Part shown: positions 1,698-52,150 of the stretch, in pieces | How positions within the stretch are numbered: the stretch's first letter is position 1 | How the letters are laid out: every line of letters begins with the position of its first letter | Source: Centroscyllium fabricii | Lineage: Eukaryota | Assembly: GCA_051313645.2 (NCBI GenBank) | Contig: JBNRSN020000023.1 | Location: 23,684,001-23,748,000 of the forward strand | Direction of reading: 5' to 3' | Length of the DNA stretch: 64,000 nt | Program-made: the position numbers and the translations under genes | Notes under the pieces: model-generated | What the model saw: only the letters and a program-made list of their open reading frames with translations | The model's database searches: none | What the model was told of the DNA's origin: nothing

Positions 1698-1785
1698 AAG
1701 TCACACAACACTACGTTATAGTCCAACAGTTTTATTTGAAATTACAAGCTTTCGGAGCACTACTCCTTCACCAGGTGAAGTCCCA
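1698..1785 (-). mobile_element. Penelope-like element terminal (pLTR) fragment with minimal hammerhead-like core
   Basis: Minus strand reads cacCTGGTGAaggagtagtgctccGAAAgcttg..aataaaactgttggactataac..gtgtgactt. 10-bp TSD ggttggtatt at 1688-1697 and 1786-1795. The empty-site landmark gttcgggttggtattggtatagggtctgg occurs elsewhere in the array (e.g. ~6186). Confidence 0.7.
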
Positions 1786-3577: not shown

Positions 3578-4303
3578 CAGGTTTGATCCCTTTAGCCTTC
3601 TTCCTTGTTTCAGCTGTGCGGTCTTGCGTTTTCTGTTAGCAAACCTCAGTATGATAACCGGTTTGTCGCTGGCGTTTCTCCTGTGCAGAGGGTGACATGC
3701 CTCGATGTTATTACAGTCCAATTCGATCCCCTTGGACTGCAGAAAAGTAGCCACCTGTTGCTCCGTTGAGCTAGCATCCAGTTCACTGGGCTCACCCCCG
3801 TTGTCGGTGGCCACCGCCCGAGCATATGATCGGGGCTTTGTATGGAGTCCAGTGATGATCACATCATTCATTCTTGTGTACTGCTCCAGGTCCGCCACTC
3901 TGCTCTCCAGATAGTCAACCCGCTTGTCTTTCTCAGCGTTCTGGATCCGCAGAGCCTTCACTTCCTCGACCAGCTCCATGATACTCTTCTGCTGTAGCCT
4001 GACAGCAGAAACTTCCTCCATTAAGAAGTCGAGCGACTTTTTAATGTTGTCGATGTCCTCTTGTGACTGGATCTTCTTGGGACCCATGTAGCCTGGTTTC
4101 GTGCGAGTTTTCCAGGCAATAATCTCTGAATCTTTGAATCTGTTTTAGTAGCTGCACTCCACAGGGCGCCGGAGATTTAAGATAATTTACTCATAAATCA
4201 TCTTTTTCTTTGGACAGGCATTGATTTTACCCTATTAAACTGCCGTTCCGCTTTCCCTATTAAACTTTCCCTATTAAACTGCCGTTTCACTCTCCCTATT
4301 AAA
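3578..4303 (-). mobile_element. 5' fragment of a LINE (L2/Crack/Daphne-like): 5'UTR plus N-terminal ~170 aa of ORF1p
   Basis: ORF from 4087 reads MGPKK..coiled coil..RVADLEQYTRMNDVIITGL..IEACHPL..PVIILRFANRK..LKGSN, typical of an L1-type coiled-coil/RRM ORF1p. Four ccctattaaa copies lie at the 5' end (4230-4303). gttggtgtt flanks both sides. Confidence 0.75.
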
Positions 4304-7300
4304 GTTGGTGTTGGTATTGTTATTGGGGTTGGTGTTGATATTGTGGTTGGTGTTGCTATTGCGGTTGGTATTGGTAGCGGGATTGGTGTTGCTTTTGGAA
4401 TTGGTGTTGGGGTTGGTGTTGGTATTTGGGTTGGTATTGGGGATGGTGTTGGTTTTGGCGGTGGTCTTGGTATTCAGATTGGTGGTGGTATTGGGGTCGG
4501 TGTTGGTATTGGGTTTGGTGTTATTGGGGTTGGTGTTGGTGATGGAATTGAAGTTGATCTTGGGGTTGGTGTTAGTATTGGCAGTGCTGGCATTGGGGTT
4601 GTTGGTATTGTGTTTGGTGTTTGTATTGAGGTTGTTGTTGGTATTGAGTTTGGTGTTTGTCTTGCGGATGGTGTTGCTATTGGGGTTGCTGCTGGTATTG
4701 GTATTGGGGCTGATGTTGATATTGCGGCTGGTTTTTGCATTGGAGTTGGTGTTGGTTTTGGTATTGTTATTGGTGTTGGTGTTGGGGTTGGTGTTGCAGT
4801 TGTTGGTGTTATTGGGGTTGGGGTTGGTATTGGATTGTGTTGGTAATGGTGTTGGAATTGGGTTGGTATTGGTGTTGATAATGGGGTTGGTGTTGGCATT
4901 GCGGTTGCTGTTGGTATTTGGGCTGATGTTGGTTTTGCTTTTGGGATTGGTACTGGGATTGGGGTTGGCATTGGTATTGGGTTTGTGTTGATATTAGGGT
5001 TTATGTTGGTATTGGGGTTGATGTTTGTATTGGGATGGGTGTTGCTATTGCAGTTGGTGTTCTTATTGGGGTTGGTGTTCTTGTTGGGGTTGGTGTTGGT
5101 ATTGGGGTTGGTGTTGGTATTGGGGTTGATGTTTGTATTGGGAATGCTGTTGCTATTGGGATGGTGCTGGTATTGGGGCTGATCTTGGTGTTGTGGCTGG
5201 TCTTTCTATTGGGGTTGATATTGGTATTGGTGTTAGCATTGGTATAGGGGCTGGTGTTGGGTTTGGTGTTGCTATTCGGGTTGGTGTTGCGGTTGGTATT
5301 GGTATAGGGTCAGGTGTTTGGGGTTGGTCTTGGTATTGGGTCTGGTGTTATGGTTGGGGTTGATGATGGTATTGATGCCAGTTTTGCGGTTTGGATTGGT
5401 GTTGGTATTGAGGCTGGTTTTGAGGTTGGTATTGGTGCTGGTGTTTGTATTGGGGCTGGGGTTGGGGTTGGTTTTAGCGTTGGTGTTGGTATTGAGGTTG
5501 GTGTTGGTATTGGGTTTGTGATACCTTTGGGGTTGGTGTTACTTTGGGGTTGGTGTTGCTTTTGGGATTGCTATTGGTGCTGGTATTGGGTTTGTGTTGA
5601 TATTGGGGTTGGTATTGGTATTTGGGTTGGTTTTATTATTGGGGATAGTGTTGGTTTTGGTGTTGGTATTCAGGTTGGTGTTGGGGCTGGTGTTGCCATT
5701 GGGTTTGGGGTTGCTATTGGGGCTGGTGCTGGTATTGGAGTTGATATTCGAGTTGGTGTTTGTACTGGGGGTGGTGTTGCTATTGGGGTTGGTGTTGGTA
5801 CTGGGATCTGTGTCCGTATTAGAGTTGGCATTGTTTTTGCATTGGTATTGGGGTTGGTATTAATATTGGAGTTCGTGTTGGTGTTGGTATTGTGGCTGGT
5901 GTTGGTATTGGGGTTGGTATTGTCGTTGGTGTTGGTGTTGGTACTGGAATGTGTGTCCGTATTGGGGTTGGCATTGGTATTTGTGTTGGTATTGGGTTTG
6001 GTGTTGGTATTGGGGATGTTATTAATATTGTGACTGGTGATGGTATTGGGGTTGGTGATGGTATTGCTGTTGTTGGTGCTGATCTTGGTATTGTGGCTGG
6101 TCTTTATATTGGGGTTGATGTTGGTATTAGGGTTGGTATTGGTATAGGGGCTGTGGTTGGGGTTGGTCTTGGTATTCAGGCTGCTGTTCGGGTTGGTATT
6201 GGTATAGGGTCTGGCGTTGGGGCTGGTCTTTTACTGGGGCTGGTGTTAGGTTTGGGGTGGGTGATGGTATTGATGCTGGTGTTGCTGTTGGGGTTGGTGT
6301 TGGGGCTGGTTTTGAGGTTGGTATTGGGCTGGTTTGCTATAGGGGCTGGAGTTGGAGTTCGGGTAGGTGCTGGTTTTAGGGTTGGTGTTGCGGTAGACAT
6401 TGCAATTGGTGTTGGTATTGAGTTTGTGCTGGTATTGAGGTTGGTGTTGCTTTTGTGGTTGGTGTTGCTTTTGAGATTGCTATTTGTGTTGGTGTTAGTG
6501 CTAGTATTGTAGTTGTGTTGGTATTATGATTGGTGTTGGTACTTGGGTTGGTGTTATTATAGGGGATGGTGTTGATTTTGCTTTTGGTGTTGGTATTCAG
6601 ATTGATGTTGGTGTTGGGGTTGCAATTGGATTTGATGTTGCTATTGGGGCTGGCACTGGTATTGGAGTTGGTGTTTGTATTGGGGATGGTGTTTATATTG
6701 AGGATGGTGTTGCTATTGGGATTGGTGCTGGTTTTGCTGTTGGTATTGGGGCTGATCTTGGTATTGCGGCCCTTTTTATATTGGGGTTGATGTTGCTATT
6801 GGGGTTGGTATTGGTCAAGGGGTTGGTGTTGATGTTGGTATTCGGGTTGCTGTTGGGGTTGGTATTGTTATAGGGTCTGGTGTTGGGGTTGGTCTTGGGG
6901 CTGGTGTTAGGTTTGAGTTTGGTGATGGTTTTGATGCTGGTGTTGCTGTTGGTATTGGGGCTGGTATTGGGGCTGATGTTGATGTTGGGGTTTGTTTTGG
7001 TTTTAGTGTTGGTGTTGCGGTTGGTGTTGGTATTGAGGTTGTTATTGGCATTGGTGCTGGTATTCGGTTATTTATGTTGCTATTGGGGTTGGTGTTGCTA
7101 TTGGGGTTGGTGCTGGTATTGGCGTTGGTGTTTGAATTGGGGCTGCACTTGGTATTGGCTTGTTGTTGGTATTGTGTATGGTTCTTCATATTGGGGTTGG
7201 TGTTGGTATCGGATTTGGGGTTGGTATCGGGTTTGTGTTAGTATTGGGGTTGGTATTGGGTTTGGTGTTGGTAATTGTCTTGATGTTGATATTGGGTTGG

Positions 7301-10604: not shown

Positions 10605-11044
10605 TGTCATGGCTCATTCCTCAGCTGGCCACCAGAGGGCACAGAGGGACGCTCAAGACACTTTGACTTTCTACCTCTGCTAATCACCAACAGGTGATTC
10701 CTATTCACTCGTTAGCTGGACTACATAAGCTTTACGCTTTTAGTCTCCTGTGCTGAGTCAAGAGATCTTCATGCTTAAGCAAGCCAGCTCTCCGTCCAGG
10801 TCTCCAAGCCAGCTCTCTTGTGAACTCTCTGCCCGGGACTCAGGTTTTGTTGATACCTTGTTTCTTCATGTTAGTTTTGGAACTCCGTTTCCTATTTGTT
10901 TTAGTGCTTCGCTGTTGTTCACGTTGTTGTTTGTATATATGCCTGTCATTGTAGCCTTCAGTAAAGGAGCAGCTGCTGATTCAACTGATCCTCTCCCTCA
11001 GCCTGCTTCCCTGCACTTGAATCCACACTTTCTGACCCGTCACA
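10605..11044 (+). repeat. 5' LTR of the Gypsy element (440 bp)
   Basis: Starts tgtcatgg and ends cccgtcaca; homologous to 16371-16991; TATA-like ctacataag at ~10721 (tatataag in the 3' LTR). Confidence 0.92.
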
Positions 11045-11045
11045 G

Positions 11046-11056
11046 CTTGACTCAGC
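11046..11056 (+). promoter_or_regulatory. Self-priming primer-binding site
   Basis: CTTGACTCAGC, 1 nt after the LTR, is the exact reverse complement of GCTGAGTCAAG at 10752-10762, about 25-30 nt downstream of the TATA-like box. Confidence 0.8.
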
Positions 11057-11062
11057 CAAAAC

Positions 11063-12759
11063 ATGGATTTAGCAGGGACCAACCAACTCATCACAGAGGT
11101 GTCCCAACTTCGCTTCGCACTCGTCAGTCAGGGAGCTGCAGTCGGTCGCCATGACCAACTACTACAGGACATTCTGAACAACCTTCAAGGACTAACTGAA
11201 GCCGTTCGACGGGGCCTGCAACCCACACCCACTCCGTCACCCACCCCTGCACCACCGACAAGCTCTGCAGCCTCACCTCAGCCTCACGCCCCCTTACCTG
11301 TTCCTGAGAGGTATGACAGTCATCCCGGTAAATGCAGAGGCTTCATCACTCAATGCACCCTGGCATTTGAACTCCAGCCATTCCGCTTTCCCTCGCCCCG
11401 CTCCAAGATCGCCTTCATGATTTCTCTCCTCTCTGCGAAGGCTCTGGCCTGGGCCACAGCAGTCTGGGAAAACCAGACACCCGCATGCTCTGATAGCCAG
11501 CTCTTCATTGAGGAGATGCAGCAGGTGTTTGACCACCCAGTCAGCGCCCGAGACGCGGCCAGCCGGCTACTCCACCTCCGACAGGCATCGAACACAGTTG
11601 CGAATTTCGCCATTGGGTTTCGTACTCTCGCCATCGAGAGCAGCTGGAACCAGGAAGCCTGTCAAAGTCTCGACCATTCATAAACGTAAGACTCTGTGAA
11701 ACAAACTTATCGTCAAAGGTAAAATTTTATTAACTGTTAGTTTGCTAGCAAACGGGAGCTCACGAAGTCAAAGGCTTCGTTAAACTGCTCCGACTATATG
11801 GTCAAGAATCAGTATTTTTATACACAAAGATCAAAACTTTCTACCATGTGACACGGTATTGAGACACAACTATTAACGAAATAAAACAAAAGACAGAGAT
11901 GCGTAAGGGATGTTCTTTTTCTAAGGTTATACAATGATGACTAAACAAAATCAGCAGGGCATTATTATTCTAAGCTAGCCTTGGTCTACAGATGACCAAA
12001 AACAAGAGGCTGAAATATGTTAGGATGGGGATAAATAATATTATAAAGTAGAGACAGTTTGTCTCATCCCTTTTTTTTAGTCATATAGAGAACCGTGAGA
12101 AAGTTTATTTCTATAGTTATTATTCCTTACTCTAATCTTCTTGAGGGTACTGTTTTGCCTAAAAGCCAATCGAGTTATCTTCTTCCTCTTGCCATTCCCT
12201 AATATGGGCCTATCTGTTTTTCTTTGTCTAGTTTTTAGCAAGGTCATTTTAACTGCTGAAATGTCAGACTCCATTTTAGTTAAGAAATGAAATGTGTGAT
12301 AATTTTAATACTACTGTTAGGATATATATATATATATATATATATAAAACTCTATATGAAACTACACTTCTACATTCCCTCATCACTGCTTTTTACCATG
12401 GCCTGTCAGAGGAGATTAAAGACGAACTAGCCACTCAGAACGACATCACCATGCTCGAAGCCCTGATTGACATTTCAATTCGCATTGACAATCGGCATCG
12501 CGAACGGCGCAGAGAGCGCCAGATACCTTCAACCACCACTGAGGCCTGGCGCACCAGCACCACTTCTGTTCCCCACAGAGAATCTTTCAGGCCCCTTCTC
12601 CCGAGCACGGTGTTCCCTGTCACCTCGGAAGAGCCCATGCCACTGGGCAGAGCCAGAATTTCCCACTCCGAACGTGAACGCCGGGTAAGGGAACGCTGCT
12701 GATTCTACTGCAGCAAAACCGGCCATTTTAAAGACTCTTGCTCTGAGCTGGCGGGAAAC
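11063..12759 (+). pseudogene. Gypsy gag (Sushi-type, similar to RTL1/PEG10 gag), split by an inserted solo LTR
   Basis: PERYDSHPGKCRGFITQC..KALAWATA..WNQEA continues after the insert as LITAFYHGLSEEIKDEL. The zinc knuckle reads *FYCSKTGHFKDSC, with the first Cys codon mutated to TGA. Confidence 0.88.
11660..12374 (-). mobile_element. Solo LTR (ERV- or Gypsy-like, 715 bp) inserted in gag
   Basis: TGT..ACA termini; AT-rich; minus strand has TATAAAAA (~11815-11822) followed by AATAAA (~11726-11731); (TA)n at ~12322-12346. Gag resumes after 4 extra nt (agcc/ttcc, a degraded TSD). Confidence 0.7.
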
Positions 12760-12792
12760 GGCCAGACTCCTCTCGCCACGGGAGGGCTGCGA
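12753..12792 (+). promoter_or_regulatory. -1 programmed ribosomal frameshift signal (G GGA AAC plus downstream stem/pseudoknot)
   Basis: The slippery heptamer is in gag codon phase (gcG GGA AAC) and the pol ORF at 12792 is in the -1 frame. Downstream pairings ctcct/gggag and tcgc/gcga are possible. Confidence 0.7.
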
Positions 12793-15700
12793 TGAGTCGA
12801 ATTTCCCCTCCCAACCCGACCTCCTCCGGGGTTCGCCACAACACGACCCTCTCCTGGGACCAACATCACCACACCCTCCAGGCGTTCGTGGACTCTGGCG
12901 CCGCTGGAAATTTCATTGACCGTGACCTGGCCATACAATTAAAGATGCCATGCAGTCAACTGGAGCACCCTCTGTCTATCTCCGCCCTCGACGACAAACC
13001 CATTGGGTCGGGTCAAATAACACACATCACTGACCCCTTGAAGCTAGAGGTGGATCAGCTCCACCATGAAACCATCCAGCTCCACCTCATCCACTCTCCT
13101 GGAATTCCCCTCATCCTGGGTTTTCCCTGGCTAGCTCTCCACAATCCTCAGTTGGACTGGTTTTCTGGCAGACTCCAGGACTGGGGCCCCACCTGTCACG
13201 CCACATGCCTCTTCTCAATTACCCCCCTTGACCCTTCCAAGTCCTCTGGGTCTCCTGAATTATCCCAGGTTCCCCCTGAATACTCTGACCTCCTGGAGGT
13301 TTTCAGCGAGGGGCGTGCCGCCTCTCTCCCCCCTCATCGCCCATATTACTGCACTATTGATCTGCTGCCTGGTACGAGCCCCCCTCGGGGCCGTCCTCTC
13401 TTCCCCCCTCATCGTCCATATGACTGCACTATTGATCTGCTGCCCGGTACGAGCGCCCCTCGGGGCCGTCCTTTCTCCCTCTCTGCCCCAGAAACTGCCG
13501 CCATGGGGGCGTACCTCAAAGACGCTCTCGCCAACGGCGCCATTCATCCCTCCACTTCACCAGCAGGGGCAGGATTCTTTTTTGTGGAGAAAAAGGACGG
13601 TGGCCTCCGCCCGTGTATTGACTATCGGGGACTGAACAGAGTCACAGTTAAGAACCGCCACCCACTTCCACTCATGTCCACCGCCTTTGAACTCCTCCAG
13701 GGCTCCACTATCTTTACCAAGCTCGACCTACGCAACGCCTACAATCTGGTCCATGTCAGAGAGGGGGACGAATGGAAAACAGCTTTCAATACCCCCAACG
13801 GCCACTACGAGTATCTCGTTATGCCATTCGGCCTGGCCAATGCACCTGCCATCTTTCAGTCATTCATCAACGATGTGTTAAGAGACCTACTGAACCAGTT
13901 TGTCTTCGTGTACCTTGACGATATCCTCATCTTCTCAAAATCACCTCCAGAACACATCCAGCATGTCCGCCAAGTCCTACAGCGTCTTCTCAGGAATCAA
14001 CTAATCATTAAGTTGGAAAAGTGTGAATTCCATCGTCCCTCAGTCTCCTTCCTGGGGTTTATTGTTAACAGAGGCAGTCTATAGATGGACCCCTCCAAGA
14101 CTCAGGCCGTTCGAGGCTGGCCATCACCCACCTCCGTCAAGGAGGTTCAACGCTTCCTGGGCTTTGCCAATTTCTACAGGCGATTCATTCAAAACTTCAG
14201 TTCTGTGGCAGCACCCCTCACTACCCTAACCAAGAAGACCACCCACTTCCACTGGTCCTCTCAGGAAGAGGAGGTCTTCCAGGACCTTAAGCGATGCTTC
14301 ACCACTGCTCCCATCCTTGTCCTCCTGGACACCTCCCATCCCTTCACGGTTGAGGTCGATGCTTCAGACATCGGAGTGGGGGGCAGTCCTGTCCCAGCGG
14401 TCACTCCATGACGAGAAGCTTCACCCATGCGCCGCCTTCTCCAGACGCCTGCTCCCGGCTGAGAGAAATTACAACATTGGGAACAGGGAGCTGGTGGCTG
14501 TCAAACTGGCACTTGAAGAATGGAGACACTGGTTGGAGGGGGCCAAGCATCCATTTCAGGTGTGGACTGACCACAGAAACCTGGCGTATATCCCCAGAAA
14601 CACAGAAGATAGGAGTAGGCCTTTCGGCCCTTCGCGCCTGCTCCGCCATTTTGATGAGATCATGGCTGATCATCCAAATCCAGCGCTCCTCTCCCCATAT
14701 CCCCCGACACCCCCCAACTCTAAGAACTATATCTCACACACATACACATGGGCAATTTTTTTAGTATCTCCAATTCACCTAACCTCTATGTCCAGGACGC
14801 TAAATGCCTCAGTGCCCACCAAGCCCGCTGGGCTCTCTTTTTCTCCCGTTTCAATTTCGACCTGGCTCCAAAAATCTCAAGCTGGATGCTCTCTCTCGCT
14901 GATTTGAAACCCCTGTGTCCACTGAAACATCGACACCCATTATCCCCAACACCACAGTCGTGGCGCCCGTCCAGTGGGGAATCGACACCATCGTGCGAGA
15001 GGCACAGCGTCAAGAGCCTGACCCCGGAAATGGACCACTCAACCACTTGTTCGTTCCCTCTGGTGCTCGCTCCCAAGTCCTCCAATGGGCGCATTCCTCC
15101 AAACTTACCAGTCAGCCCGGGGTCACTTGCACACGAGACATCCTCCGCCGACGTTTCTGGTGGCCCTCAGCTGAGAGAGACGTCAGGACAAGCTTGGATG
15201 AAAGACCAGTCTGCGCCCAGAAAAAAAAACCCCCGGACTTGACCACTAGTTCTGCTCCACACCTTGTCCGTCCCCACCCGCTCTTGGTCCCACCTGTCCA
15301 TGGACTTCGTGACCGGTCTGCCACCCTCTCTGGGCAACATGGTCATCCTGGTGGTCGTCGACCGGTTCTCCAAGGCCTGCCGGTTTATCCCTATGCCCAA
15401 ACTCCCATCCGCCATGAGACTGCCGAACACCTGATGCAACATGTCTTCTGGCTGCATGGTCCCCCCCTCAACATCGTCTCCGATCACAGACCCCAGTTCG
15501 CGTCCCTGTTCTGGAAGGTGTTCTACACCCTGTTGGGCGCCTCCGTCAGCCTCTCCTCTGGCGACCACCCCCAATCTAATGGGCAAACTGAGAGTCAACT
15601 AGGACCTTGAGACCCCTCTGCGCTGCTTTGCCTCCTCCCACCCCTCAACCTGGTGCAAACACCTCGCTTGGGCGGAATACGCCCACAACTCGCTGCACAA

Positions 15701-16340
15701 CTCCTCCCTGGCCATGTCCCCCTTCGAATGCCAATACGGCTACCTGCCGCCACTGTTCCCTGAACAAGAGCCCGAGGTGGCAGTTCCCTCTGCTCAGGCC
15801 TTCGTCCGTCGCTGCTAGCACACCTGGAGGAGGGCACAGTCATCACTTTTTGTGGGCCGCCCGCCGCCATCAAATCCAAACCAACCGCCATCGCACCCCA
15901 GCTTCGATCGTTCGACCTGGCCAGAGGGTCTGGCTCTCCACTCGGGACCTCCCCTTGCACACTGAGTCCCACAAACTCTCCCCCCACTACATTGGGCCAT
16001 TGAAAATCATCAAACGGGTCACTCCCGTCTCCTTCCGCCTCCAGCTCCCCCAGTCCATGCGGGTCCACCCCGTTTTTCATGTTTCCCGTCTCAGGCCCAT
16101 CCACACCAGTCTCTTGGCTCCTCCCTCCAAACCTCCCCCAGTGCCACGCATGGTGGGGGGGACAACCCGCTTACACCGTCCGCCACCTCCTTCAGTCCCA
16201 TCAGGTCCATGGGGGGATCCAGTATCTCGTTGACTGGGAGGGGTATGGTCCAGAAGAATGCTCTTGGGTCCTCGCCCGGGATATACTAGACCCCAACCTC
16301 ATCAGAGACTTCAACCACCAGCAGGGGCATCCAAGGGGTC
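12792..16340 (+). pseudogene. Gypsy pol: protease, RT, RNase H, integrase, chromodomain; multiple stops and frameshifts
   Basis: [12 protein letters not shown]; [37 protein letters not shown]; [13 protein letters not shown]; VEVDASD; [26 protein letters not shown]; IVSD..HPQSNGQTE; KLSPHYIGP..HPVFHVS; [16 protein letters not shown]. In-frame TAG at 14082. Confidence 0.93.
14594..14786 (-). mobile_element. Short SINE-like insert (CR1-type 3' end plus HE1-like core) inside RNase H
   Basis: Interrupts NLAYI|QDAK; TSD tatatcc/tatgtcc at 14587-14593 and 14787-14793. Shares ggagtaggcc..gatgagatcatggctgatcatccaaa..ctctaagaactatat with the CR1 end at 50653, then gggcaattttt..ccaattcacctaacct. Confidence 0.65.
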
Positions 16341-16370
16341 GTCGGGTGTCGACCCTAGCCGGGGGACTAC

Positions 16371-16991
16371 TGTCATGGTTCGTTCCTCAGCTGGCCACTA
16401 GAGGGCACAGAGGGATGCTTAAGACACTTTGACTCTCTACCTCTGCTAATCACAAGAAGTCACACAACACCAGGTTATAGTCCAGTTTTATTTTAAATCA
16501 CAAGTTAAATTTAAATAAAACTATTGGACTATAACCTGGTGTTGTGTGACTTCTTGCATTTGTCCACTCCAGTCCAACACCGGCACCTCCACATCATGTC
16601 TGCTAATCATCAACAGGTGATTCCTATTCACTCGTTAGCTGGACTATATAAGCTTTACGTTTTTAGTCGCCTGTGCTGAGTCAAGAGATCTTCATGCTTA
16701 AGCAAGCCAGCTCTTGGTCCAGGTCTCCAAGCCAGCTCTCTTGTGAACTCTCTGCCCAGGACTCAGGTTTTGTTGATACATTGTTTTTTGTGTTAGTTTT
16801 TGAACCCCGTTTCCTATTTGTTTTCGATGTGTTTTTCTTAGTTTTAGTGCTTCTCTGTTGTTCATGTTATTGTTATTGTTATTGTTTGCCTGTCATTGTA
16901 GCCTTCAGTAAAGGAGTTGCTGCTCATTCAACTGATCCTCTCCCTCCGCCTGGTTCCCTGCACTTGAATCAACACTTTCCGTCCCGTCACA
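16371..16991 (+). repeat. 3' LTR of the Gypsy element, containing a Penelope-like insert
   Basis: Homologous to 10605-11044 with many substitutions and small indels. Confidence 0.92.
16453..16598 (+). mobile_element. Penelope-like terminal fragment with 5' inversion (fold-back hairpin)
   Basis: 11-bp TSD tctgctaatca at 16442-16452 and 16599-16609; absent from the 5' LTR; inverted repeat spanning 16453-16556; homologous to 1698-1785. Confidence 0.75.
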
Positions 16992-32836: not shown

Positions 32837-34337
32837 GTATTGGTGTTTGTGTTGAGGTTAGGCTTGGTGTTGTTGGGGTTGGGGTTGCAATTGGAGTTGG
32901 TCTTGGGGTTGATGTTGGTCTTGGGGTTGGTGTTGGTGTTGGGGTTGGTGTTGGTTTTGGGGTTGGTGTTGCGTTTGGTGTTGGCATTGGGGTTGGGTTT
33001 GGTGTTGGTATTGGGGTTGTGCTGGTATTGGTGTTGTTGGGGTTGGGTTTGTTGCTCGTATTGGGGCTGTGCTGGTATTGGGGTTGGTGTTTGTTTTGGG
33101 GATGGTGTTGCTATTGGGGTTGCTGTTGGTGTTGCGGCTGGTGTTTGCATTGGGGTTGGTTTTGGTGTTGGTATTGATGTTGGGTTGGGTTTGTGGTTGT
33201 TGGTATTGGTATTGGCACTGGTGTTGGCATTGGGACTGGTTGATTTTAGGGTAGTTGTTGGTGTTATTGGAGTTGGGGTTGGTGTTGGTATTGAATTGTG
33301 TTGGTAATGGGGTTGGTGTTGATAATGTGGTCATTGTGGTTGCTGTTGGTATTTGGGCTGATGTTGGTTTTGGTGTTGGTTTTGCTTTTGGGATTGGTAC
33401 TGGGATCGGGGCTGGCGTTGGTATTGGGTTTGTGTTGGTATTGGTGTTGGTATTGGTGTTGGTATTCAGATTGGTGGTGCTATTGGTGTTGGTCTTGCTA
33501 TTGGTGTTGGAATTGCGTGTGTTGCTGTTGGGGCTGATGCTGGTGTTGGTGTTAGAGTTGGTCTTCGTATTGGGGCTGGTGTTGGTGTTGTTGTTGGTGT
33601 TGGTATTGGGGTTGGTATTCTGGTTGGTGTTGGTATTGGTGTTTATATTGGGTTTGTGTTGGTATTAGGGTTGGTGTTGATTTTGGGGTTGGTGTTTGTT
33701 TTCGGGCTGGCGTTGATATTGCAGTTGGTGTTGGTTTTGTGGTAGATGTTGCGGTTGGTGTTGCTGTTTGGATTGGTATTAGGGTTGGGATTGGTGTTGA
33801 TATTGGATTTGTTAGTATTGGGGTTGGTGTTGGTATTAGGGATGGTGTTGGGGTTGGGATTGGGTTCAGTATTGGAATTGGGGTTGTTGCTGGTATTGAC
33901 GTTTGTGTTGGTATTGGGACAGGATTAGGTACTGGTGTTGGTATTGGAATTGGTATTGGGATTGCAGTTGTTATTGGGGTTGGTGTTGATATTGGGGTTG
34001 GTGTTGATATTGGGGTTGGTGTTGATATTGGGGCTGTTTTTGGGATGGGGTTAGTGTTGACATTGTGTTTGGTGTTGGCATTGGAGCTGGTGTTGGTATT
34101 GGATTTGGTGCTGACATAGGGTTTGCTGTTGGTATTGTGGTTGCTGTTGGTTTTGGGGTTGGTGTTACGGTTGGTGTTGCTTTTTGGGCTGGGGTTGGGG
34201 TTGGGATTGGTGCTCATCGGGTTTATGTTGGTATTGGGGTTGGTGTTTGTGTTGGTATTGGGGATGGTGTTGGGTTTGGTTTTGGTGTTGGTATTCAGAT
34301 TGGTGTTGGTATTAGGTTTGGTGTAGGGGCTGGTATC
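32837..34337. repeat. G/T-rich hexamer satellite
   Basis: Same periodicity; resembles the 29.7-30.6 kb block. Confidence 0.93.
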
Positions 34338-36482
34338 TGTAACGGTTGGGTGTTAGTGGAATGAAGGCGGGGCCCAAATGCAGAGACACTGAAACGTTTA
34401 TAAAACTAAACTCCTTATTACTAAAACACTATAGAATACCAAAAACATACAATAATATAGGACACATATAACACACAAGTCTTATCAACAGACTGGCACA
34501 GACTTCCCGACACAGCGAGCAATGAATAGAGGGGTGCCACGCAATCCAGCGCGCCATTCTCCCAAAGAATACCAGTCCAGGCATAACTGTCCAACCTAAA
34601 GAGAACCGAGCAAGTCCTCCTCAGCGAGCATGACATCTCAATCCACCCTCTATGTAGAGGATTTGGGAACAGCTTATGCTTCCAGATTACCAATGTCCAA
34701 ACCAGAGTTCGGATGAAGAAATGAATGTCCAAGTAGTAGAAATGGGTCCGACCTACTTCTTCTGCTCCGTCACAGAGACTTAACCCCATGGCAATCAGGC
34801 AGTAGCGCACCAGGTCTACTGGCAGGGGGACTCCCTTACCAAACAGATGAATGTCCATTGCTGAGTTCCCAATAGCAGGGCGCACTGTCAAGGCGGAGGG
34901 AAATGAGTTCCACCCCAATGCCCCTGTTGGGCAACCCAGCCTGAGCACCTGAAATAGCAAAGTACAAGTACAAGCTGAGTCAATCGATCTGCAACCTCCT
35001 TGCCTCTGACGGCCACTCAGCACAACAGCCGAAAACCACCTCCTTCCAGTGGCCTGTAGAATGAATAATGGATATCCAGTCCCAAGACGCATTACCATCA
35101 AATGATCCCGCATCTGCTCTCAGCCAACCTCCTGATTATATCCTAAACCCAGCAAGTACCCTATTGGGTGATAGCCAATAATCCTGAGGGGATGAGAGCA
35201 GAGCACAACTAGCACATACATAGATAATTGAACAGTTAATAACATAACAAGGGAACCTATTCCTTAAAACAGCTGTGGAGCCACAGTAAAAACTGTTTCT
35301 AATATTTAAAGGAACAGGCCCCCTGTGACAGGACCCCCCCTTAAGGGCCGACAGTGACGGCCCAAATACCCAATAAGCCGAAATAGGGTGGGCGGAGGGT
35401 ACAAAGAGGAGACAACAGTCTACAAAAAAATTTTTTAAGAGTAATTAAACGCTACAGTGTCTGCTGGGCCCCATTTGACGGGATCATTCTGTAACGGTTG
35501 GGTGTTAGTGGAATGAAGGCGGGGCCCAAATGCAGAGACACTGAAACGTTTATAAAACTAAACTCCTTATTACTAAAACACTATAGAATACCAAAAACAT
35601 ACAATAATATAGGACACATATAACACACAAGTCTTATCAACAGACTGGCACAGACTTCCCGACACAGCGAGCAATGAATAGAGGGGTGCCACGCAATCCA
35701 GCGCGCCATTCTCCCAAAGAATACCAGTCCAGGCATAACTGTCCAACCTAAAGAGAACCGAGCAAGTCCTCCTCAGCGAGCATGACATCTCAATCCACCC
35801 TCTATGTAGAGGATTTGGGAACAGCTTATGCTTCCAGATTACCAATGTCCAAACCAGAGTTCGGATGAAGAAATGAATGTCCAAGTAGTAGAAATGGGTC
35901 CGACCTACTTCTTCTGCTCCGTCACAGAGACTTAACCCCATGGCAATCAGGCAGTAGCGCACCAGGTCTACTGGCAGGGGGACTCCCTTACCAAACAGAT
36001 GAATGTCCATTGCTGAGTTCCCAATAGCAGGGCGCACTGTCAAGGCGGAGGGAAATGAGTTCCACCCCAATGCCCCTGTTGGGCAACCCAGCCTGAGCAC
36101 CTGAAATAGCAAAGTACAAGTACAAGCTGAGTCAATCGATCTGCAACCTCCTTGCCTCTGACGGCCACTCAGCACAACAGCCGAAAACCACCTCCTTCCA
36201 GTGGCCTGTAGAATGAATAATGGATATCCAGTCCCAAGATGCATTACCATCAAATGATCCTGCATCTGCTCTCAGCCAACCTCCTGATTATATCCTAAAC
36301 CCAGCAAGCACCCTATTGGGTGATAGCCAATAATCCTGAGGGGATGAGAGCAGAGCACAACTAGCACATACATAGATAATTGAACAGTTAATAACATAAC
36401 AAGGGAACCTATTCCTTAAAACAGCTGTGGAGCCACAGTAAAAACTGTTTCTAATATTTAAAGGAACAGGCCCCCTGTGACA
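34338..36482 (-). mobile_element. Non-autonomous LTR element: two 993-bp LTRs around a 159-bp interior (large TRIM-like)
   Basis: LTRs at 34338-35330 and 35490-36482 are near-identical (3 substitutions seen by eye). 6-bp TSD ggtatc at 34332-34337 and 36483-36488. PPT (minus AAGGGGGGG) at ~35334-35342; PBS at 35479-35488. Confidence 0.9.
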
Positions 36483-39400
36483 GGTATCGGTATTGGGTTT
36501 GGTGTTGAAATTGGGGTTGGTGGTGCCATTGGGGTTGGTGCTGGTATTGGGGTTGTTCTTGCTATTAGGGTTGGCGTTGGTATTGGGGCTGGTGTTGCTG
36601 TTGGGGTTGGTTTGAGGTGGGCTTTGGTATTGGGGTTGGTTTTGAGGTGGGGGTTGGTTTTGAGGTGGGGGATTGGTATTGGGGTTGGTGTTGGTATTTT
36701 GTTTGGTATTGATTTTGTTATTGGGGTTGGTGTTGGTGTTGAGGTCGGTTTTGATATTGGGGTTGGTATTGAGGTCGGTTTTGGTACGGTGTTGGGGTTG
36801 CTGTTGGTATTGGGGTTGCTGTTGGTATTGGGGTCGCTGTTGGTATTGGGGTCGCTGTTGGTATTGGGGTCGCTGTTGGTATTGGGGTCGCTGTTGGTAT
36901 TGGGGTCGCTGTTGGTATTGGGGTCGCTGTTGGTATTGGGGTCGCTGTTGGTATTGGGGTCGCTGTTGGTATTGGGTTGGTGTTGACATTGGGTTTGTTG
37001 GTATTGGGGTTGGTGTTGCTGTTGGGGTTGGTGTTGATATTGGGGTTGTTGGTGTTGGAGGGGCTGGTGTTGGTGTTTGTATTGGGGCTGTTAGTGGTAT
37101 CTGGGTTGGTTTTGATATTGGAGTTGCTGGTGATATTAGGGTTGGTATTGGGGTTGGTGTTAGTATATTTGGTGTTGGTTTTGTTATTGGAGTTATTATT
37201 GGGGTTGGTGTTGGTATTGAGGTCGGTTTTGGTACTGGCATTGGTGTAGGGATTGGTGTTTGTATTGGTGTTGGTATTGGGGCTGCTGTTGGTATTGGGT
37301 TTGGTGTTGGTATTGGTGTTGGTGTTGACATTGGGTTTGTTGTAATTGGGGTTGGTGTTGATATTGGGGTTGTTGCTGGTGGGGCTGGTGTTGGTGTTGG
37401 TGGTGGTATTTGGGTTGGTTTTGACATTGGGGTTGCTGGTGGTATTGGGGTTGGTGTTGAAATTGAGGTTGGGGTTGGTATTGGGTTTGGTGTTGGTATT
37501 TTGTTGGTTTTGTTATTGGGGTTGGTGTTGGTACTGGGGTTGGTGTTGGTATTGAGGTCGGTTTTGGTACTGGCATTGGTGTTGATCTCTGTGTTGGTAT
37601 TGGATTTCGTGTTTGTATTGAAGTTTGTGTTTGTATTGGGGTTGGGGTTTTATTAGTGTGGTTGGCATTGGGTTTGATGTTTGTGTTGGTATGGGGTTTG
37701 GTGTTGGCGTTGATGTTGGTATTGCGATTGGTGTTGGTACTGGGGTTGGTATTGGTATTGCGTTTGGTATTGGGGTTGGTGTTGACATTGGGGTTGGTGT
37801 TGGTATTTGGGTGGTTGTTTGGGGGTTGGTGTTTGGTTGGTTTTGGTATTGGGGCTTGTGTTTGGGTTGGGCTTGGGCTTGGCATTGGTATTGGGACTGG
37901 TGGAGGTATTTGTGTTCATGTTGACATTGGGGATGCTGGTGGTTTTGGGGTTGGTGTTGGTATTGTGTTTGATGCTGGTGTTGGTATTGGAGTTGTTGGG
38001 GCTGGTGTTGATATTGAGGTCGGTTTTGGTATGGGCATTGTTGTTGGGGTTGATATTGGTTTTCATGTTTGTATTGGGGTTGGGGGTTTACTGGTGTTGC
38101 TGTTGGTTCTGGGTTTAGTGTTTGTGTTGGTGTTGGTATTGGGGATGGTGTTGGATTTGGGCTTTGTGTTGGTATTGGTCTGGTGTTCATATTGGATTTG
38201 GTGTTATTGAGGCTGCTGTTGGTATTGGGGTTGTTGCTATTGGGCTTGGTGTTGACATTGGGGTTGCTGGTGTTATTGGGGTTGGTGTTGACATTGACAT
38301 TGGGGTTGGTGTTAGTATTAAGGTTGTTGGGGTTTGTGTTGATATTGATGGTTTTGGTACTGGCATTGGTGTTGGGGTTGATGTCAGTGTTGATCTTGGA
38401 TTTCGCGTTTGTATTGAGGTTGGTGTTTGCATTGGGGTTGGGGTTTTTATTGGTGTTGGTATTGGGTTTGATGTTGGGGTTGATGTTGTTATTGGGGTTG
38501 GTGTAGGTATTGGGGTTGGTGTTGGTATTGGAGCTGGTATTGGGTTTGGGGTTGATTTTGGTATTGGGGTTGGGGTTGGTATTGGGTTGATGGTATTGGG
38601 CTTTGCATAGGTATTGGGTCTGTTGATATTCAGATGTTGTTGCTATTGGGGTTGGTGTTGATATTGGGGTTGTTGGTGGGGCTGGTGTTGGTGTTTGTAT
38701 TGGGGCTGGTGGTGGTATTTGGGTTGGGTTTGGTGTTGGTATTGGGGTTGGTGTTGATTTTGGGGTTGGTGTTGGTTTTGTTATTGGGATTGGTGTTGGT
38801 ATTGGGGTTGTTATTGAGGTCTGTTTTGGTACTGGCGTTGGTGTTGGGGTTGATGCCGGTGTTGGTACTGGATTTCGTGTTTGTATTGAGGTTTGTATTG
38901 GGGTTGGGGTTTTATTGGTGTTGGCATTGGGTTTGATGTGTGTTGGTATGGGGTTTAGTGTTGGCATTGATGTTGGTGTAGGTATTGGGGTTAGTTTTGG
39001 TATTGTGGCTGGTGTTGATAATGGGGTTTGTGTTGACATTGGCGTTGGGGTTGGTGTTGGGGTTGGGCTTGGTATTGGGACTGGTGGAAGTATTTGTGTT
39101 CATGTTCACGGTGTTGGTATTGGGTTGGTGTTGACATGGGAATTGGTATTGGGGTTGGTATTGTTGGGGTTGGTGTTGATATTGGGGTTGGTGGTACAGG
39201 CATTCATGTTGGGGTTGATATTGGTGTTGGTATTGGATTTTGTGTTTTGCATTGAGGTTGGGGGTGTGTTGGGGTTTTTACTGGTATTGGGGATGGTGTT
39301 GGATTTGGGCTTGGTGTTCATATTGGAGTTGGTGTTATTGAGGCTGCTGTTCGTGTTGGGGTTGGGGTTAGTATTGGAGTTGGTGGCGGTGGTAGGGCTG

Positions 39401-42884: not shown

Positions 42885-43972
42885 TTAAGGGCAGACCTCT
42901 TCACCAGCAGGGTCCAAGAAGTGGCTGTCTATGAGCCTCTGACGTAGAGCCCTTCCACTTTCCGCATGCTTCCTGTGTTGGGGCTGCTGCTGATGCTCCT
43001 CATCTTCGTCCTCCTCCTCCTCCGGCACTGCAACAATGTCTGGCAGCACTGGCTGGGTCCTCAGGAATGCCCGGTTATGCAGCATGCAGCAGACAATGAC
43101 GAAGCGGGACACACTGGCAGGCGCATACTGGAGGGCTCCTCCAGAATGGCCCAGACAGCGGAAGCGTTGTTTGAGCACGCCAATTGTCTGCTCAATGAGG
43201 TTCCTAGTCACCTGATGGCTGTCGTTGTATCGAAGCTCAGCAGGGGTTTGGGGAGCAGGGAGCAGGGTCATCAGCCACGGGGTCAGTGCATATCCTTTTT
43301 CCCCTAGAAGCCATCCAGCTGAGTGATTCGGTGCCTTGAAGAGGTCTGCCACAGTAGTCTGGTGCAGTATGAAGGCATTGTGGGTGCTGCCTGGATAGTG
43401 CGCATTCACAGCGAGGATCCACTGTTGGTGCTCACACACCAGCTGTAAGTTTAGAGAATGGAAGCCTTTCTGTTGCGGTATTCCTCAGCATTGCGATACG
43501 GCACCCGCAAAGCCACATGCGTGCAGTCAATGGCGTCCTACACCATGGGGAAGCCCTGCACATTGGCAAACCCCACATGGCATTCCTGCTGCTTGTCCAG
43601 GGCCATGGGGAATGATATATACTGTCGCCTCCTTCTGTATAGGGCTTCTGTGACCTGATGGATGGTGCAATGCACCACAAACTGCGAGATATTAGTTATG
43701 TCCCCAGTACCTGCTTGAAATGAGCTGGTGGCATAAAAGTTGAGAGCACAGTAACCTTCACTGCCATCGACAAGAGAAGTCCTGGTCCTCTGTTGAGGCT
43801 GCAGGTCTGGCTGAAGAAGCTGGCAGAGCTCCGTCACCACCTCCTTACTGAACCACAGCCTGCGCAGACACTGCTCCTCCGACATTCTCCGGTATGAGTA
43901 CTGCTGTCCGAAAACCCTGCCACGGTAAGGTCTCCTGTGCACACGACTGTCTGCCCTCCTGCACCTGGTCAT
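42885..43972 (-). pseudogene. Harbinger DDE transposase (HARBI1-like family), inactivated
   Basis: ALNFYATSSFQ..GD..ISQ; GFPMV*DAIDCTHV; YPGSTHNAFIL; WLLGEKGY; RNLIEQTIGVLKQRFRCL; VCCMLHN. Contains a stop and frameshifts. Confidence 0.88.
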
Positions 43973-44579: not shown

Positions 44580-46745
44580 AAGTTATACACCACAGAAAGA
44601 GTCCCTTCGGCCCATTGTGTCCGCGCCGGCCATCAAGACGTCTATTCTAATCCCATTTCCAGCACTTGGTCTATAGCCTTGCATGTTCTGGCATTTCAAG
44701 TGCTCATCTAAATGCTTCTTGAATGTTGTGAGGGTTCCTGCCTCGACCACCCTTTCAGGCAGTGAGTTCCAGATTCCAACCACCCTCTGGGTGAAAAAGT
44801 TCTTCCTCAAATCCCCTCTAAACCTCCCGCCCCTTACCTTGAAGCTATGCCCCCTGGTTATTGACCCCTCTACTGAGGGAAAAAGTTCCTTTCTATCTAC
44901 CCTATCTATGCCTTCATAATTTTGTACACCTCAATCAGGTTCCCCCTCAGCCTTCTCTGCTCCAAGGAAAACAACCCCAGCCTGCCCAGTCTTTCTTCAT
45001 AGCTGACGCACTCCAGCCCAGGTAACATCCTGGTGAATCTCCTCTGCACCCTCTCCAAAGTGATCACATCCCTCCTATAGTGTGGCGACCAGAACTGCAC
45101 ACAGTACTCCAGCTGTGGCCTAATTAGCGATTTGTACAGCTCCATCATAACCTCCCTGCTTTTATATTCTATGCCTCGGCTAATGAAGGCAAGTATCCCA
45201 TATGCCTTTTTAACCACCTTATCTACCTGTCCTGCTGCCTTCAGGGATCTATGTACATGCACACCAAGGTCCCTCTGATCCTCTGTCCTTCCTAGGGTCT
45301 TACCATTCATTGTGTATTCCCTTGCCTTGTTAGTCCTCCCAAAATGCATCACCTCAAAATTTTTCAGGTTAAATTCCATTTGCCACTGCTCCGCCCATCT
45401 GATCAACCCGTCTATATTGCCCTGCACACTGAGGCTTCCCTCCTCACTATTTACCACCCCATCAGCTTGTGTGTCATCTGCGAACTTACTGATCATACCT
45501 TTTACATTCATATCTAGATCATTAATGTAGACTACAAACAGCAAGGGACCCAGCACCAATCCCTGTGGTACACCACTGGACACCGGCTTCCAGTCACAAA
45601 AACAAACTTCGACCATCACCCTCTGCCTTCTGCCACTAAGCCAGTTTTGGATCCAATGTGCTGAGGTGCCCTGGATCCCATGGGCTCTTACCTTCTTGAC
45701 TAGTCTCCTATGCAGGACTTTATCAAAAGCCTTACTGAAGTCCATGTATACCACATCCACTGCACTACCCTCATCCACACACCTAGTCACCCCCTCGAAA
45801 CATTCAATCACATTGGTCAGACATGATCTCCCCTTGACAAAGCCATGCTGGCTATCCTTGATCAATCCTTGATCAATCCTTGCTTCTCCAAGTGGAGACT
45901 AATTCTGTCCCTCAGAATGTTTTCCAATATTTTCCCTACCACTGATGTTAGGCTCACTGGCCTGTAATTCCCTGGTTTATCCCTACTACCCTTCTTGAAT
46001 AATGGTGCTATGTTAGCTGTTCTTGAGTCCTCTGGCACATCCCCTGTGGCCAGAGAGGTTCTGAAAATTTGTGGCACAGCCCCTGCAACCTCCTCCTTTG
46101 CCTCACACAGCAGCCTGGGATACATCTCATCTGGGCCAGGTGATTTATCCACTTTTAAGCCTGCTAAAACCGCTATTACCACCTCCCTCTCAATACGAAT
46201 TTGTTCAAGTATATCACAGTCCCCCTGCCTGATTTCTGTGTCTACATCTTCCTTTTTCATAGTGAACACAGATGCAAAATATTCATTTAAAACCCTACCT
46301 ACATCTTCTAGCTCTACACAGATTGCCACTTTGGTCCCTAATGGGCCCTACTCTTTCCCTGGTTATCCTCTTGTCCTTAATATCCTTATAAAACACCTTC
46401 GGATGTTCCTTTATTTTGCTCGCCAGTGTTATTTCATACCCCCTCCTCGCTCTCCTAATTTCTTTTTTAAGTATCCCCCTGCACTTTTTATACTCCTCCA
46501 GGGCTTCCTCTGTCTTTAGTCCTTTGTATCTGCCAAAAGCCTCCCTTTTTTTCCTAATCCATTCTCGTATATCCCTTGACATCCAGGGTTCCCTAGGCTT
46601 GTTGGTCCCACCCTTGACCTTTTACGGGAACATGTTGCCATTGTACTCTCATTTCCTTTCTGATAAACTCCCACTGCCCTGATGTGGATTTTCCTACAAG
46701 TAGCTGATCTCAGTCCACTTTGGCCAGATCCTGCCTTATCATATT

Positions 46746-50652: not shown

Positions 50653-52150
50653 ATAGGAGCAGGAGTAGGCCATTCAGCCCCTCACGCCTGCTCTGCCATT
50701 CGATGAGATCATGGCTGATCATCCAAACTCGGTACCCTGCACCTGCCTTCTCCCCATATCCCTTGATACCTTTAGCTCTAAGAACTATATATAACACCTT
50801 CTTAAATACCATTAGCTCTAAGAACTATATATAACTCCTTCTTAAATATATTTAATGACTTGGTCTCAACTACATTCTGTGGTAGAGAATTCCACAGGTT
50901 CACCACTCTCTGGGTGAAGAAATTCTTCCTCATCTCTGTCCTGAATAGCTTACCCCTAATCCTTAGACTGTGACCCCTGGTTCTGGACTCTCTGACCATC
51001 GGGAACATTCTTCCTGCATCTAGTTTGTCCAGATCTGTCAGAATTTGATACGTTTTGATGAGATCCCCTCTCATTCTTCAAAACTCCAGCAAGTATAAAC
51101 CCAATCGACCCAATCTCTCCTTGTACGTCATTCCTGCCATCCCAGGAATCAGCCTTGTGAACCTTCGCTGAACTCCTTCCATGGCAAAAACATCCTTCCT
51201 CAGATAAGGTGACCAAAACTGCACACAGTAATCAAGGTGTGGTCTCACCAAGGCCCTGTACAACTGCAGCAGGACATCCTTGTTCCTATACTCAAACCCT
51301 TTCGCTATGAAGGCCAACATACCATGTGCCGCCTTCACCCTTGCCTTCAACGACTGGTACACAAGAACACCCAGATCTCGTTGCACTTCCCCGTCTCCCA
51401 ATCTATTTCCATTCAGATAATAGTCTGCCTTTCTGTTTTTGTCACCAAAGTGGATAACCTCGCATTTATCCATGTTATATTGCATCTGCCATGCTTCTGC
51501 CCAATCACACAACCTGCCCAAATCATCCTGAAGTTTCTCTGCATCCTCCTCACAGCACACATGCACACCCAGCTTTGTGTTGTCTGCAAACTTGGAGATA
51601 TTACATCTAGTTCCCTTATCTAGGTCGTTAATATATATCGTAAATAGTTGGGGTCCTCGCACTGATCCCTGCGGTACCCCACTAGTCACTGCCTGCCACT
51701 CGGAAAAAGACCGTTAATTCCTACTCTCTGCTTTCTGTCCGCCAACCAGTTCTCTTTCCAAGTCAATACCTTGCCTCCAATCCCATTTGCTTAACTTTAC
51801 ACACTAATCTCTTATGCGGGACCTTATTGAAAGCCTTTTGAAAGTCCAAATATACCACATCTACTGGTTCTCCCTTATCTATTTTCCCAGTTACATCCTC
51901 AAATCTCCAGTAGATTAGTCAAGCACGATTTACCTTTTGTAAATCCATGTTGACTTTGTCTGATCCTGTCACTGTTTTCCAAGTGCTCAGCTATTACATC
52001 GTTTATAATGGACTCTAGCATTTTCCACACTGTCAATGTCTGTAATTCCCTGCTTTCTCTCTACCACCCTTTTTGAATAGTGGGGTAACATTAGCTACCC
52101 TCCAATCCATGGGTACAGTTCCAGATTCCAGTGAAAGATGATCAGTAACG

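What the first reader, a model, noticed from the sequence alone, without database searches (positions are those of the whole stretch)
34338..36482. Very young non-autonomous LTR element with a 159-bp interior and a self-priming PBS
Seen: two 993-bp LTRs with only ~3 differences and a 6-bp TSD. The interior holds just a PBS, an ATG-led stub and a PPT. The PBS (minus AATGATCCCG, 35479-35488, 1 nt from the LTR as in the Gypsy element) is complementary to CGGGATCATT ~25 nt after TATAAT in the LTR (35101-35110; one C>T change in the 5' LTR at 36261). Established: described TRIMs typically have short LTRs and tRNA PBSs. Inference: a minimal, tRNA-independent parasite of Sushi-type chromoviruses, recently mobile. 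This is the best candidate for an undescribed system in the window.
Basis: partly seen in the sequence, partly recalled or inferred. Interest (0 to 1): 0.72.

Follow-up and report, generated by a model that had tools for sequence, protein, structure and literature searches.

The report
Self-priming miniature retrotransposon parasite family
This is one of about 8,000 copies of a stripped-down jumping gene that has lost its protein genes; matched sequence changes across its family show that it likely starts copying itself with the tip of its own RNA instead of a tRNA, likely borrowing the enzymes of the full-length element it was cut down from.

Summary
Real, and a family rather than a one-off deletion. 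The structure is as reported: 993-bp LTRs, 3 differences, 159-bp interior, 6-bp TSD. The genome holds 7,951 exact matches to the short-interior pattern. Subfamilies fall to about 45% LTR identity yet keep a 152-190-bp interior. The primer-binding site changes between subfamilies, and the 11 nt lying 29 nt behind the TATA-like box change to match, at 4 positions. This is comparative support for Tf1/Sushi-type self-priming. The parent is in the same genome: a 5.5-kb chromovirus (gag-PR-RT-RH-IN-chromo). Nested deletions sharing breakpoints link it to the minis (4,450, 1,974, 712, ~165 bp). After losing gag, the minis strengthened the U5/leader stem and roughly doubled their LTRs. Corrections: the primer is 11 nt; the usual TSD is 5 bp; the ATG is a non-conserved gag relic; the neighbouring Gypsy is not the parent; 'very young' is not shown. 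No RNA data were available, so the transcription start, the cleavage and the helper remain inferred. Ten paper searches gave no self-priming TRIM-like family; the scan's notes hold no look-alike.

The parts
34332..34337 (.). Left copy of the 6-bp target-site duplication, in a degenerate G/T-rich satellite
34338..35330 (-). 3' LTR, 993 bp
35101..35111 (-). Predicted 11-nt self-primer sequence (start of R) in the 3' LTR, fully complementary to the PBS (10 Watson-Crick pairs + 1 G-U)
35135..35140 (-). TATA box of the 3' LTR, 29 nt before the primer site
34424..35113 (-). 230-codon open frame inside the LTR (also 35576-36265); no Pfam hit, no sign of protein-level selection, probably not a gene
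35331..35489 (-). 159-bp interior: PBS, decayed first gag codons, a short remnant of the gag-pol middle, parent 3' end, PPT
35334..35342 (-). Polypurine tract
35334..35399 (-). Stretch homologous (75-81%) to the last ~70 nt of the parent's interior
35447..35472 (-). Leader arm (relic of the gag start) predicted to pair with U5
35478..35488 (-). Primer-binding site, 11 nt, 1 nt from the LTR, not TGG-led
35490..36482 (-). 5' LTR, 993 bp
35521..35551 (-). U5 arm predicted to pair with the leader arm (hairpin z = -7.0)
35566..35571 (-). Poly(A)-signal position (34414-34419 in the 3' LTR); reads AATAAG in this copy where close relatives have AATAAA
36253..36263 (-). Predicted self-primer in the 5' LTR; carries a private mismatch at primer position 3 (36261), seen in 1 of 174 LTRs examined
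36287..36292 (-). TATA box of the 5' LTR (predicted promoter)
36483..36488 (.). Right copy of the 6-bp target-site duplication

Best explanation
The element is one copy of a family of about 8,000 non-coding LTR retrotransposons, cut down by nested internal deletions from a chromodomain-bearing Gypsy family of the same genome; it likely primes reverse transcription with the first 11 bases of its own RNA and likely borrows Gag, reverse transcriptase and integrase from that parent family. Inferred steps: Pol II starts 29 nt behind the TATA box. The first 11 nt fold back onto the PBS while U5 pairs with the former gag start. The helper's RNase H cuts after nt 11, as shown for yeast Tf1, and the released end primes minus-strand DNA. 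The PPT primes the plus strand, and the helper's integrase inserts the copy with a mostly 5-bp duplication. Shown from sequence: copy number, TSDs, descent, covariation of primer and PBS, a stronger U5/leader stem and longer LTRs than the parent. This particular copy carries a primer mismatch and an altered poly(A) signal and is probably a poor donor.
For: Family: 7,951 short-interior matches, control 0; 60 of 60 loci from two samplings have two LTRs around a 152-170-bp interior. Covariation: six PBS types each come with the matching R sequence; 158 of 174 LTRs from 87 elements pair at all 11 positions (at most one G-U), 14 have one mismatch, 2 lack the site. Of 19 parsed variant loci, 15 show the matched change in R. 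Position: 29 nt behind a TATA-like box in 22 of 24 mini representatives. U5/leader duplex beats every control window in 30 of 30 representatives; z = -6.98 for this copy. Parent: 9,103 gag-start and 8,236 parent-PBS matches; Gag, protease, RT, RNase H, integrase, SH3 and Chromo domains in one frame; same LTR ends, PPT and 5-bp TSD; LTR divergence 0-1.6%, overlapping the minis'. Shared breakpoints link parent, 1,974-bp, 712-bp and mini forms; the minis form one clade, support 100, nested in the parent family.
Against: No RNA evidence: start site, cleavage and RNA-primed strong-stop DNA are unseen. The third duplex of the Tf1 'pretzel' (R against the LTR end) beat all control windows in only 4 of 30 representatives. 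Two-sided changes in the U5/leader stem are few (2 pairs; 192 of 500 shuffles reach that). Four single-copy PBS variants are not matched in R; they read as post-insertion decay. Primer position 2 is mismatched in both LTRs of some copies, so the needed duplex may be shorter than 11 bp. The window's subfamily is far from the parent (only short 73-78% LTR matches), and other self-priming chromoviruses exist in the genome, so the present helper is not proven.
Confidence: 0.8

Rival explanations
1. Self-priming and descent are right, but today's helper is another Sushi-type family, or several, because self-priming needs a structure and not a shared sequence.
For: The derived minis share little LTR sequence with the parent. 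The window's other Gypsy has the same 11-nt fold-back design. 6-bp TSDs occur in 8 of 67 minis and 0 of 7 parent copies, a difference too small to weigh much.
Against: The minis keep the parent's LTR ends, PPT and 3' interior. The parent family is abundant and overlaps them in age.
Confidence: 0.12
2. The PBS is primed by a tRNA, a tRNA half or another host RNA; the match to R is an inherited relic or serves folding only.
For: Described TRIMs, Helenus and Ajax use tRNA or tRNA-fragment primers (passages of PMC10886601, PMC13570524). The genome's tRNA set was not screened here.
Against: None of the PBS types begins with TGG. The PBS varies at 5 of 11 positions and R follows at 4; a fixed host primer would not allow this, and a relic would decay while the LTR fell to about 45% identity.
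Confidence: 0.04
3. The minis are repeated post-insertion deletion products, or were spread by DNA recombination and segmental duplication, not by retrotransposition.
For: 12 of 79 parsed minis sit in tandem arrays. One pair (L022/L023) shares its TSD and looks duplicated.
Against: 67 of 79 have their own TSD. LTR pairs are about 99.5% alike within a copy while subfamilies differ by up to 55%. One clade with shared breakpoints. No gag-type start follows the derived PBS (0 hits).
Confidence: 0.02
4. The element is not fully non-coding: the 230-codon frame in the LTR makes a protein that aids its spread.
For: The frame is longer than in 300 of 300 shuffles, and long sense frames recur in related subfamilies.
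Against: No Pfam hit. Shared variants show 40 synonymous changes against 37.2 expected without selection, and 41 of 46 close relatives carry frame-changing indels in the region. It is absent from distant subfamilies. Its first ATG overlaps the predicted start site.
Confidence: 0.02

Closest known systems
Tf1/Sushi group of chromoviruses (Tf1, Tf2, Tj1, Tosmo, sushi-ichi); passages of PMC10085805, PMC4600332, PMC7175516, PMC6317226
   Same: PBS complementary to the predicted first 11 nt of the RNA; a second duplex between U5 and the PBS-adjacent leader; parent with single gag-pol frame and chromodomain; LTR ends fit the Sushi motif of PMC3601003 (also the rGmr1 motif).
   Different: The described members are coding elements; this one has no genes. 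The third 'pretzel' duplex is not consistently supported here. LTRs are about twice the parent's.
TRIMs, long-TRIMs and tandem-array TRIMs (passages of PMC13570524, PMC10886601)
   Same: Two LTRs around an interior of little more than PBS and PPT; TSDs; subfamilies; tandem arrays; long-LTR/short-interior forms are reported in sugar beet.
   Different: 2.1 kb, above the 1-kb and 1.5-kb TRIM limits. All 115 sugar-beet families were given tRNA-derived PBS motifs; here the primer is predicted to be the element's own RNA. The parent and deletion intermediates survive in the same genome.
Helenus, Ajax, Cassandra (passages of PMC10886601)
   Same: Non-autonomous LTR elements; vertebrate Helenus families are thought to ride on Gypsy elements.
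   Different: They carry tRNA- or 5S-derived promoters and tRNA primers, and animal Helenus makes 4-bp TSDs. Here there is a TATA box, no Rfam match and a 5-bp TSD.
Retrozymes (search listing only, PMC4918200)
   Same: Non-autonomous LTR elements thought to depend on Gypsy machinery.
   Different: No ribozyme family matched in 8 loci.

Membership tests
Tf1/Sushi self-priming retrotransposons | PBS complementary to the sequence just behind the LTR promoter (self-primer) | tested here: met
   158 of 174 LTRs pair at all 11 positions; matched changes at 4 positions across subfamilies
Tf1/Sushi self-priming retrotransposons | Transcript starts at the first base of the self-primer | not testable with these tools
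   No RNA holder listed; only the 29-nt TATA spacing
Tf1/Sushi self-priming retrotransposons | U5 pairs with the leader downstream of the PBS | tested here: met
   Best of all control windows in 30 of 30; z = -6.98; 92.8% of cells paired, few two-sided changes
Tf1/Sushi self-priming retrotransposons | Third duplex: R downstream of the primer pairs with the LTR end | tested here: inconclusive
   Beats all controls in 4 of 30; -12.2 kcal/mol with 2 of 31 controls as low in this copy
Tf1/Sushi self-priming retrotransposons | RNase H cleavage after nt 11 yields the primer | not testable with these tools
   Bench test; known for Tf1 (passage of PMC7175516)
Tf1/Sushi self-priming retrotransposons | gag-pol with a chromodomain integrase | tested here: not met
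   The mini has none; its parent family does. It works like a member and descends from one, but is a non-coding derivative
Tf1/Sushi self-priming retrotransposons | Parent RT falls in the Tf1/Sushi clade | tested here: inconclusive
   No tree with named references was built; closest single-RT hits are fish chromodomain polyproteins at 75-86% identity, some named Tf2-type
TRIM (strict) | Two LTRs, PBS, PPT, TSD, no mobilisation genes | tested here: met
TRIM (strict) | Total length under 1 kb (or 1.5 kb) | tested here: not met
   2,145 bp; LTRs of about 890-1,320 bp across subfamilies
TRIM (strict) | tRNA-complementary PBS | tested here: not met
   No TGG start, and the PBS tracks R; the host tRNA set itself was not screened
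LARD | Longer than 4 kb with a long non-coding interior | tested here: not met
   Interior 152-190 bp in 79 minis
Helenus / Cassandra / retrozymes | tRNA-, 5S- or ribozyme-derived sequence in the LTR | tested here: not met
   Rfam scan of 8 loci: one chance hit outside the elements, E 2.7

The most novel reading that the evidence does not exclude
An undescribed kind of minimal retroelement parasite that needs neither genes nor a host tRNA. Freed from coding, it has rewritten its own primer at least six times, tightened the priming stem, doubled its R region and evolved several-fold faster than its helper while reaching similar copy number. With the surviving deletion series, it is a natural mutagenesis map of the cis signals for self-primed reverse transcription in a vertebrate.
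Probability: 0.55. Interest if true: 0.66.

Novelty: new variant of a known kind. Interest (0 to 1): 0.53.

Why it matters
In the passages I read, self-priming was demonstrated in fission yeast and is only predicted or implicated for vertebrate Tf1/Sushi elements. Here the primer and its binding site change together along a family tree, which is comparative evidence in a vertebrate. The deletion series shows what such an element cannot lose: the LTR, about 50 nt behind it and about 70-100 nt before the PPT. That bounds where packaging and priming signals can lie. The stronger stem and longer LTR of the minis pose testable questions on how parasites compete for a helper's enzymes and whether a minimum RNA length applies. 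Practically, about 8,000 interiors with 1-kb LTRs are some 10-17 Mb of genome (inferred from copy number times unit length) that finders needing a tRNA PBS or protein domains would miss.

Tried and rejected
Expression: no RNA holder listed. Other organisms: two further organisms share 23-26% of words; laid contigs cover parts of the LTR at low depth and not the interior, so range beyond this species is open. Insertion polymorphism: the flank chosen (L010) proved to be a high-copy repeat and the test was uninformative. Rfam: nothing. LTR frame as a gene: rejected; the Atlas search gave no result. Neighbouring Gypsy (about 10676-16991) as parent: rejected, no blastn hit to the mini and 55% amino-acid identity to the true parent over protease-RT. 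A coding partner with the minis' own PBS: 0 hits for that pattern. Primary Tf1 papers PMC1369541, PMC109269 and PMC6388632 are not held; Butler 2001 was not looked up. Rows dropped: L092 (not parsed; its printed 3' LTR pairs with one G-U), L120 (not parsed), L032 (5' LTR misparsed, left out of the divergence median). No structure or complex prediction was run: there is no credible protein in the element.

Full report
Observation. The element is on the minus strand: 5' LTR 35490-36482, interior 35331-35489, 3' LTR 34338-35330. The LTRs are 993 bp and differ at three places, two of them CpG transitions. The TSD is a true 6-mer. The insertion sits in a degenerate G/T-rich satellite. The duplex runs to 11 nt with a terminal G-U pair, and the 5' LTR carries a private mismatch at primer position 3.

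It is a family. The window lies in a 7.2-Gb genome. The host is probably a cartilaginous fish; this rests on a recalled SINE motif and on unchecked scan notes, and was not tested. All 40 scored matches (of 1,471 candidates) to the junction-interior-junction stretch cover it end to end at 97% or more. All 30 fetched, the window's copy among them, are LTR-interior-LTR: 20 have a 5-bp TSD, 5 a 6-bp TSD, 5 are in tandem arrays. The LTR-end+PBS 16-mer has 5,145 exact hits, control 0. The first 30 of these along contig C1 all have 152-170-bp interiors; 22 have 5-bp TSDs, 1 a 6-bp TSD, 7 junctions are in three arrays. Their 3' LTRs (970-1,201 bp) fall into subfamilies down to 44-60% identity. A pattern spanning leader to PPT to LTR start within 105-140 nt has 7,951 hits, control 0. 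Within-copy LTR divergence has medians of 0.41% (n=30), 0.47% (n=29) and 0.55% (n=19).

Self-priming. A PBS-free pattern gave 7,836 hits and showed recurring PBS variants among the first 100 listed. I fetched 20 variant loci, chosen to cover the variants, and parsed 19. In 15 the R sequence carries the matching change; these cover five further PBS types. Four single-copy variants have an unchanged R (three G-U, one mismatch) and read as later decay. Over all 87 parsed elements (79 minis, 8 parent-family), 158 of 174 LTRs pair at all 11 positions with at most one G-U, 14 have one mismatch, and 2 truncated or misparsed LTRs lack the site. Two-sided changes fall at PBS positions 3, 6, 8 and 9; read on the tree they need at least six events. 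The site lies 29 nt behind a TATA-like box in 22 of 24 mini representatives and 29-31 nt in 6 of 6 parent-family ones; the motif search was permissive. No PBS type begins with TGG. Covariation could come from selection or from the primer being copied into the PBS; either way R acts as primer (inference).

The rest of the Tf1 'pretzel'. PMC10085805 (passages) describes three duplexes. The U5/leader duplex is better than every control window in 30 of 30 representatives, and this copy's hairpin has z = -6.98. On 28 aligned sequences 92.8% of cells pair, but only 2 pairs change on both sides, which shuffles often reach (192 of 500); the alignment also misregisters the parent rows in the outer helix. 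So the stem is conserved, with weak covariation. The third duplex is inconclusive (4 of 30). A poly(A)-like hexamer lies 65-85 nt before the LTR end in all 37 representatives, so R is long; this copy reads AATAAG there.

The parent. Read in another frame, the stub resembles a gag start. A gag-start pattern gave 9,103 hits. These loci have the same LTR end, a related PBS and, in 18 of 30 by an exact 9-mer test, its complement behind the TATA box. Of 10 fetched in full, 7 are 5.5-kb elements with 498-583-bp LTRs and 4.45-4.52-kb interiors, 2 are internally deleted, 1 was not parsed. One has an uninterrupted frame with Gag, protease, RT, RNase H, integrase, SH3 and Chromo domains. Its RT region matches fish chromodomain polyproteins at 75-86%. 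Parent-type PBS junctions number 8,236, and parent-family LTR divergence is 0-1.6% (n=8). No gag-type start follows the minis' PBS.

Descent by nested deletion. Mapped on the 4,450-bp parent interior, the 1,974-bp form jumps 1350 to 3708 and 3810 to 4007. The 712-bp form adds a jump from 52 to 1228 and occurs at two loci. Basal minis (L093, L107) keep 1-52, 1228-1250 and 4352-4450. A tree of 37 sequences on 293 columns (3' interior plus U3, primer excluded, rooted on parent copies) puts all 30 minis in one clade, support 100, sister to the 712-bp form. Root-to-tip distances are 0.47-1.42 for minis and 0.00-0.17 for the others, with the window's subfamily near the far end of a ladder. Long branches can attract, but the shared breakpoints support single origin independently. 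The excess divergence suggests many more replication cycles in the minis (inference).

What changed after gag was lost. The U5/leader duplex is -31.5 to -47.0 kcal/mol in 79 minis, and -15.0 to -30.4 in 8 plus 30 parent-family copies (the two sets overlap), with no overlap between minis and parent family. The ATG survives in 49 of 79. R grew from about 340-420 nt (R+U5) to 700-1,110 nt, with internal tandem duplications visible in 5 of 7 LTRs self-compared. PMC13570524 (passages) likewise notes short interiors among long-LTR non-autonomous families in sugar beet.

The LTR frame. A 230-codon frame spans R in this subfamily. It has no Pfam hit, no synonymous excess (40 against 37.2 expected among shared variants), and frame-changing indels in 41 of 46 close relatives. 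It is longer than 300 of 300 shuffles, which I leave unexplained.

Age. At 7e-10 per site per generation (epaulette shark, PMC10587355, passages; borrowed rate), 3 differences in 993 bp give about 2.2 million generations, or 0.7 million on the one non-CpG change. Some copies have identical LTRs, so the family was active more recently than this insertion. Present activity is untested.

Novelty. Ten full-text searches were run. Those joining self-priming or Sushi with non-autonomy returned 0, 1, 2 and 0 papers. I read passages of two of the three; they mention the terms in unrelated places. The third (PMC5857283) I saw as a listing only. Subscription journals, Butler 2001, the primary Tf1 papers, Repbase, Dfam and all supplements were not seen, and an unpublished library entry for such a family is quite possible. 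Papers seen as passages: PMC6317226, PMC10886601, PMC10085805, PMC3601003, PMC4600332, PMC7175516, PMC13570524, PMC10587355, PMC10680173. The scan's own notes hold no look-alike sequence, and none of the 8 notes shown of 35 fitting concerns this family.

Verdict. Both ingredients are known, non-autonomous LTR miniatures and Tf1/Sushi self-priming; their union, with a covarying primer and a surviving deletion series, I did not find described. New variant of a known kind. Confidence 0.8 in the mechanism, interest 0.53.

Noticed in passing
window about 10676-16991 (+): A broken Sushi-type Gypsy (Gag, protease, RT, RNase H, integrase, SH3). Its PBS (11046-11056) is the 11-nt complement of 10752-10762, 28 nt behind a TATA-like box: the same design in another family.
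   Followed up: partly
L112:802-5148, residues 480-900: The parent's RT region is 85-86% identical to several database proteins, one named as Takifugu rubripes. If the host is a cartilaginous fish this may point to horizontal transfer with teleosts.
   Followed up: no
window 34424-35113 and LTRs of related subfamilies: Sense-strand open frames in R are longer than shuffles in several related subfamilies (for example 229 and 205 codons, 0 of 300 shuffles each) without any synonymous bias. Unexplained; stop-codon avoidance is one untested idea.
   Followed up: partly
L017, L020, L024, L025, L027, L032/33, L037-39, L057/58, L115: Head-to-tail arrays sharing LTRs are common: 12 of 79 parsed minis and 1 of 8 parent-family copies.
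   Followed up: partly
L001, L003, L014, L015, L029, L060, L104, L108: True 6-bp TSDs in 8 of 67 minis (6 of 29 in the window's PBS type) against 5 bp in the rest and in 7 of 7 parent-family copies.
   Followed up: partly
L064, L081/L116, L063, L111: The 712-bp intermediate occurs at two separate loci with the same three breakpoints; L063 and L064 also show a ~140-bp duplication in R of the 5' LTR.
   Followed up: yes
L098, L105, L106, L108, L110: The subfamily with the most derived primer has an expanded A-run/T-run in mid-interior (180-190 bp) and only 0-2 LTR substitutions: among the youngest sampled.
   Followed up: no
window 1-64000: The window is a degenerate G/T-rich satellite with a period near 18 bp, interrupted by nested mobile elements, among them a DDE_Tnp_4 transposase fragment (42888-43484) and RT fragments (44909-46347, 51081-51713).
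   Followed up: no
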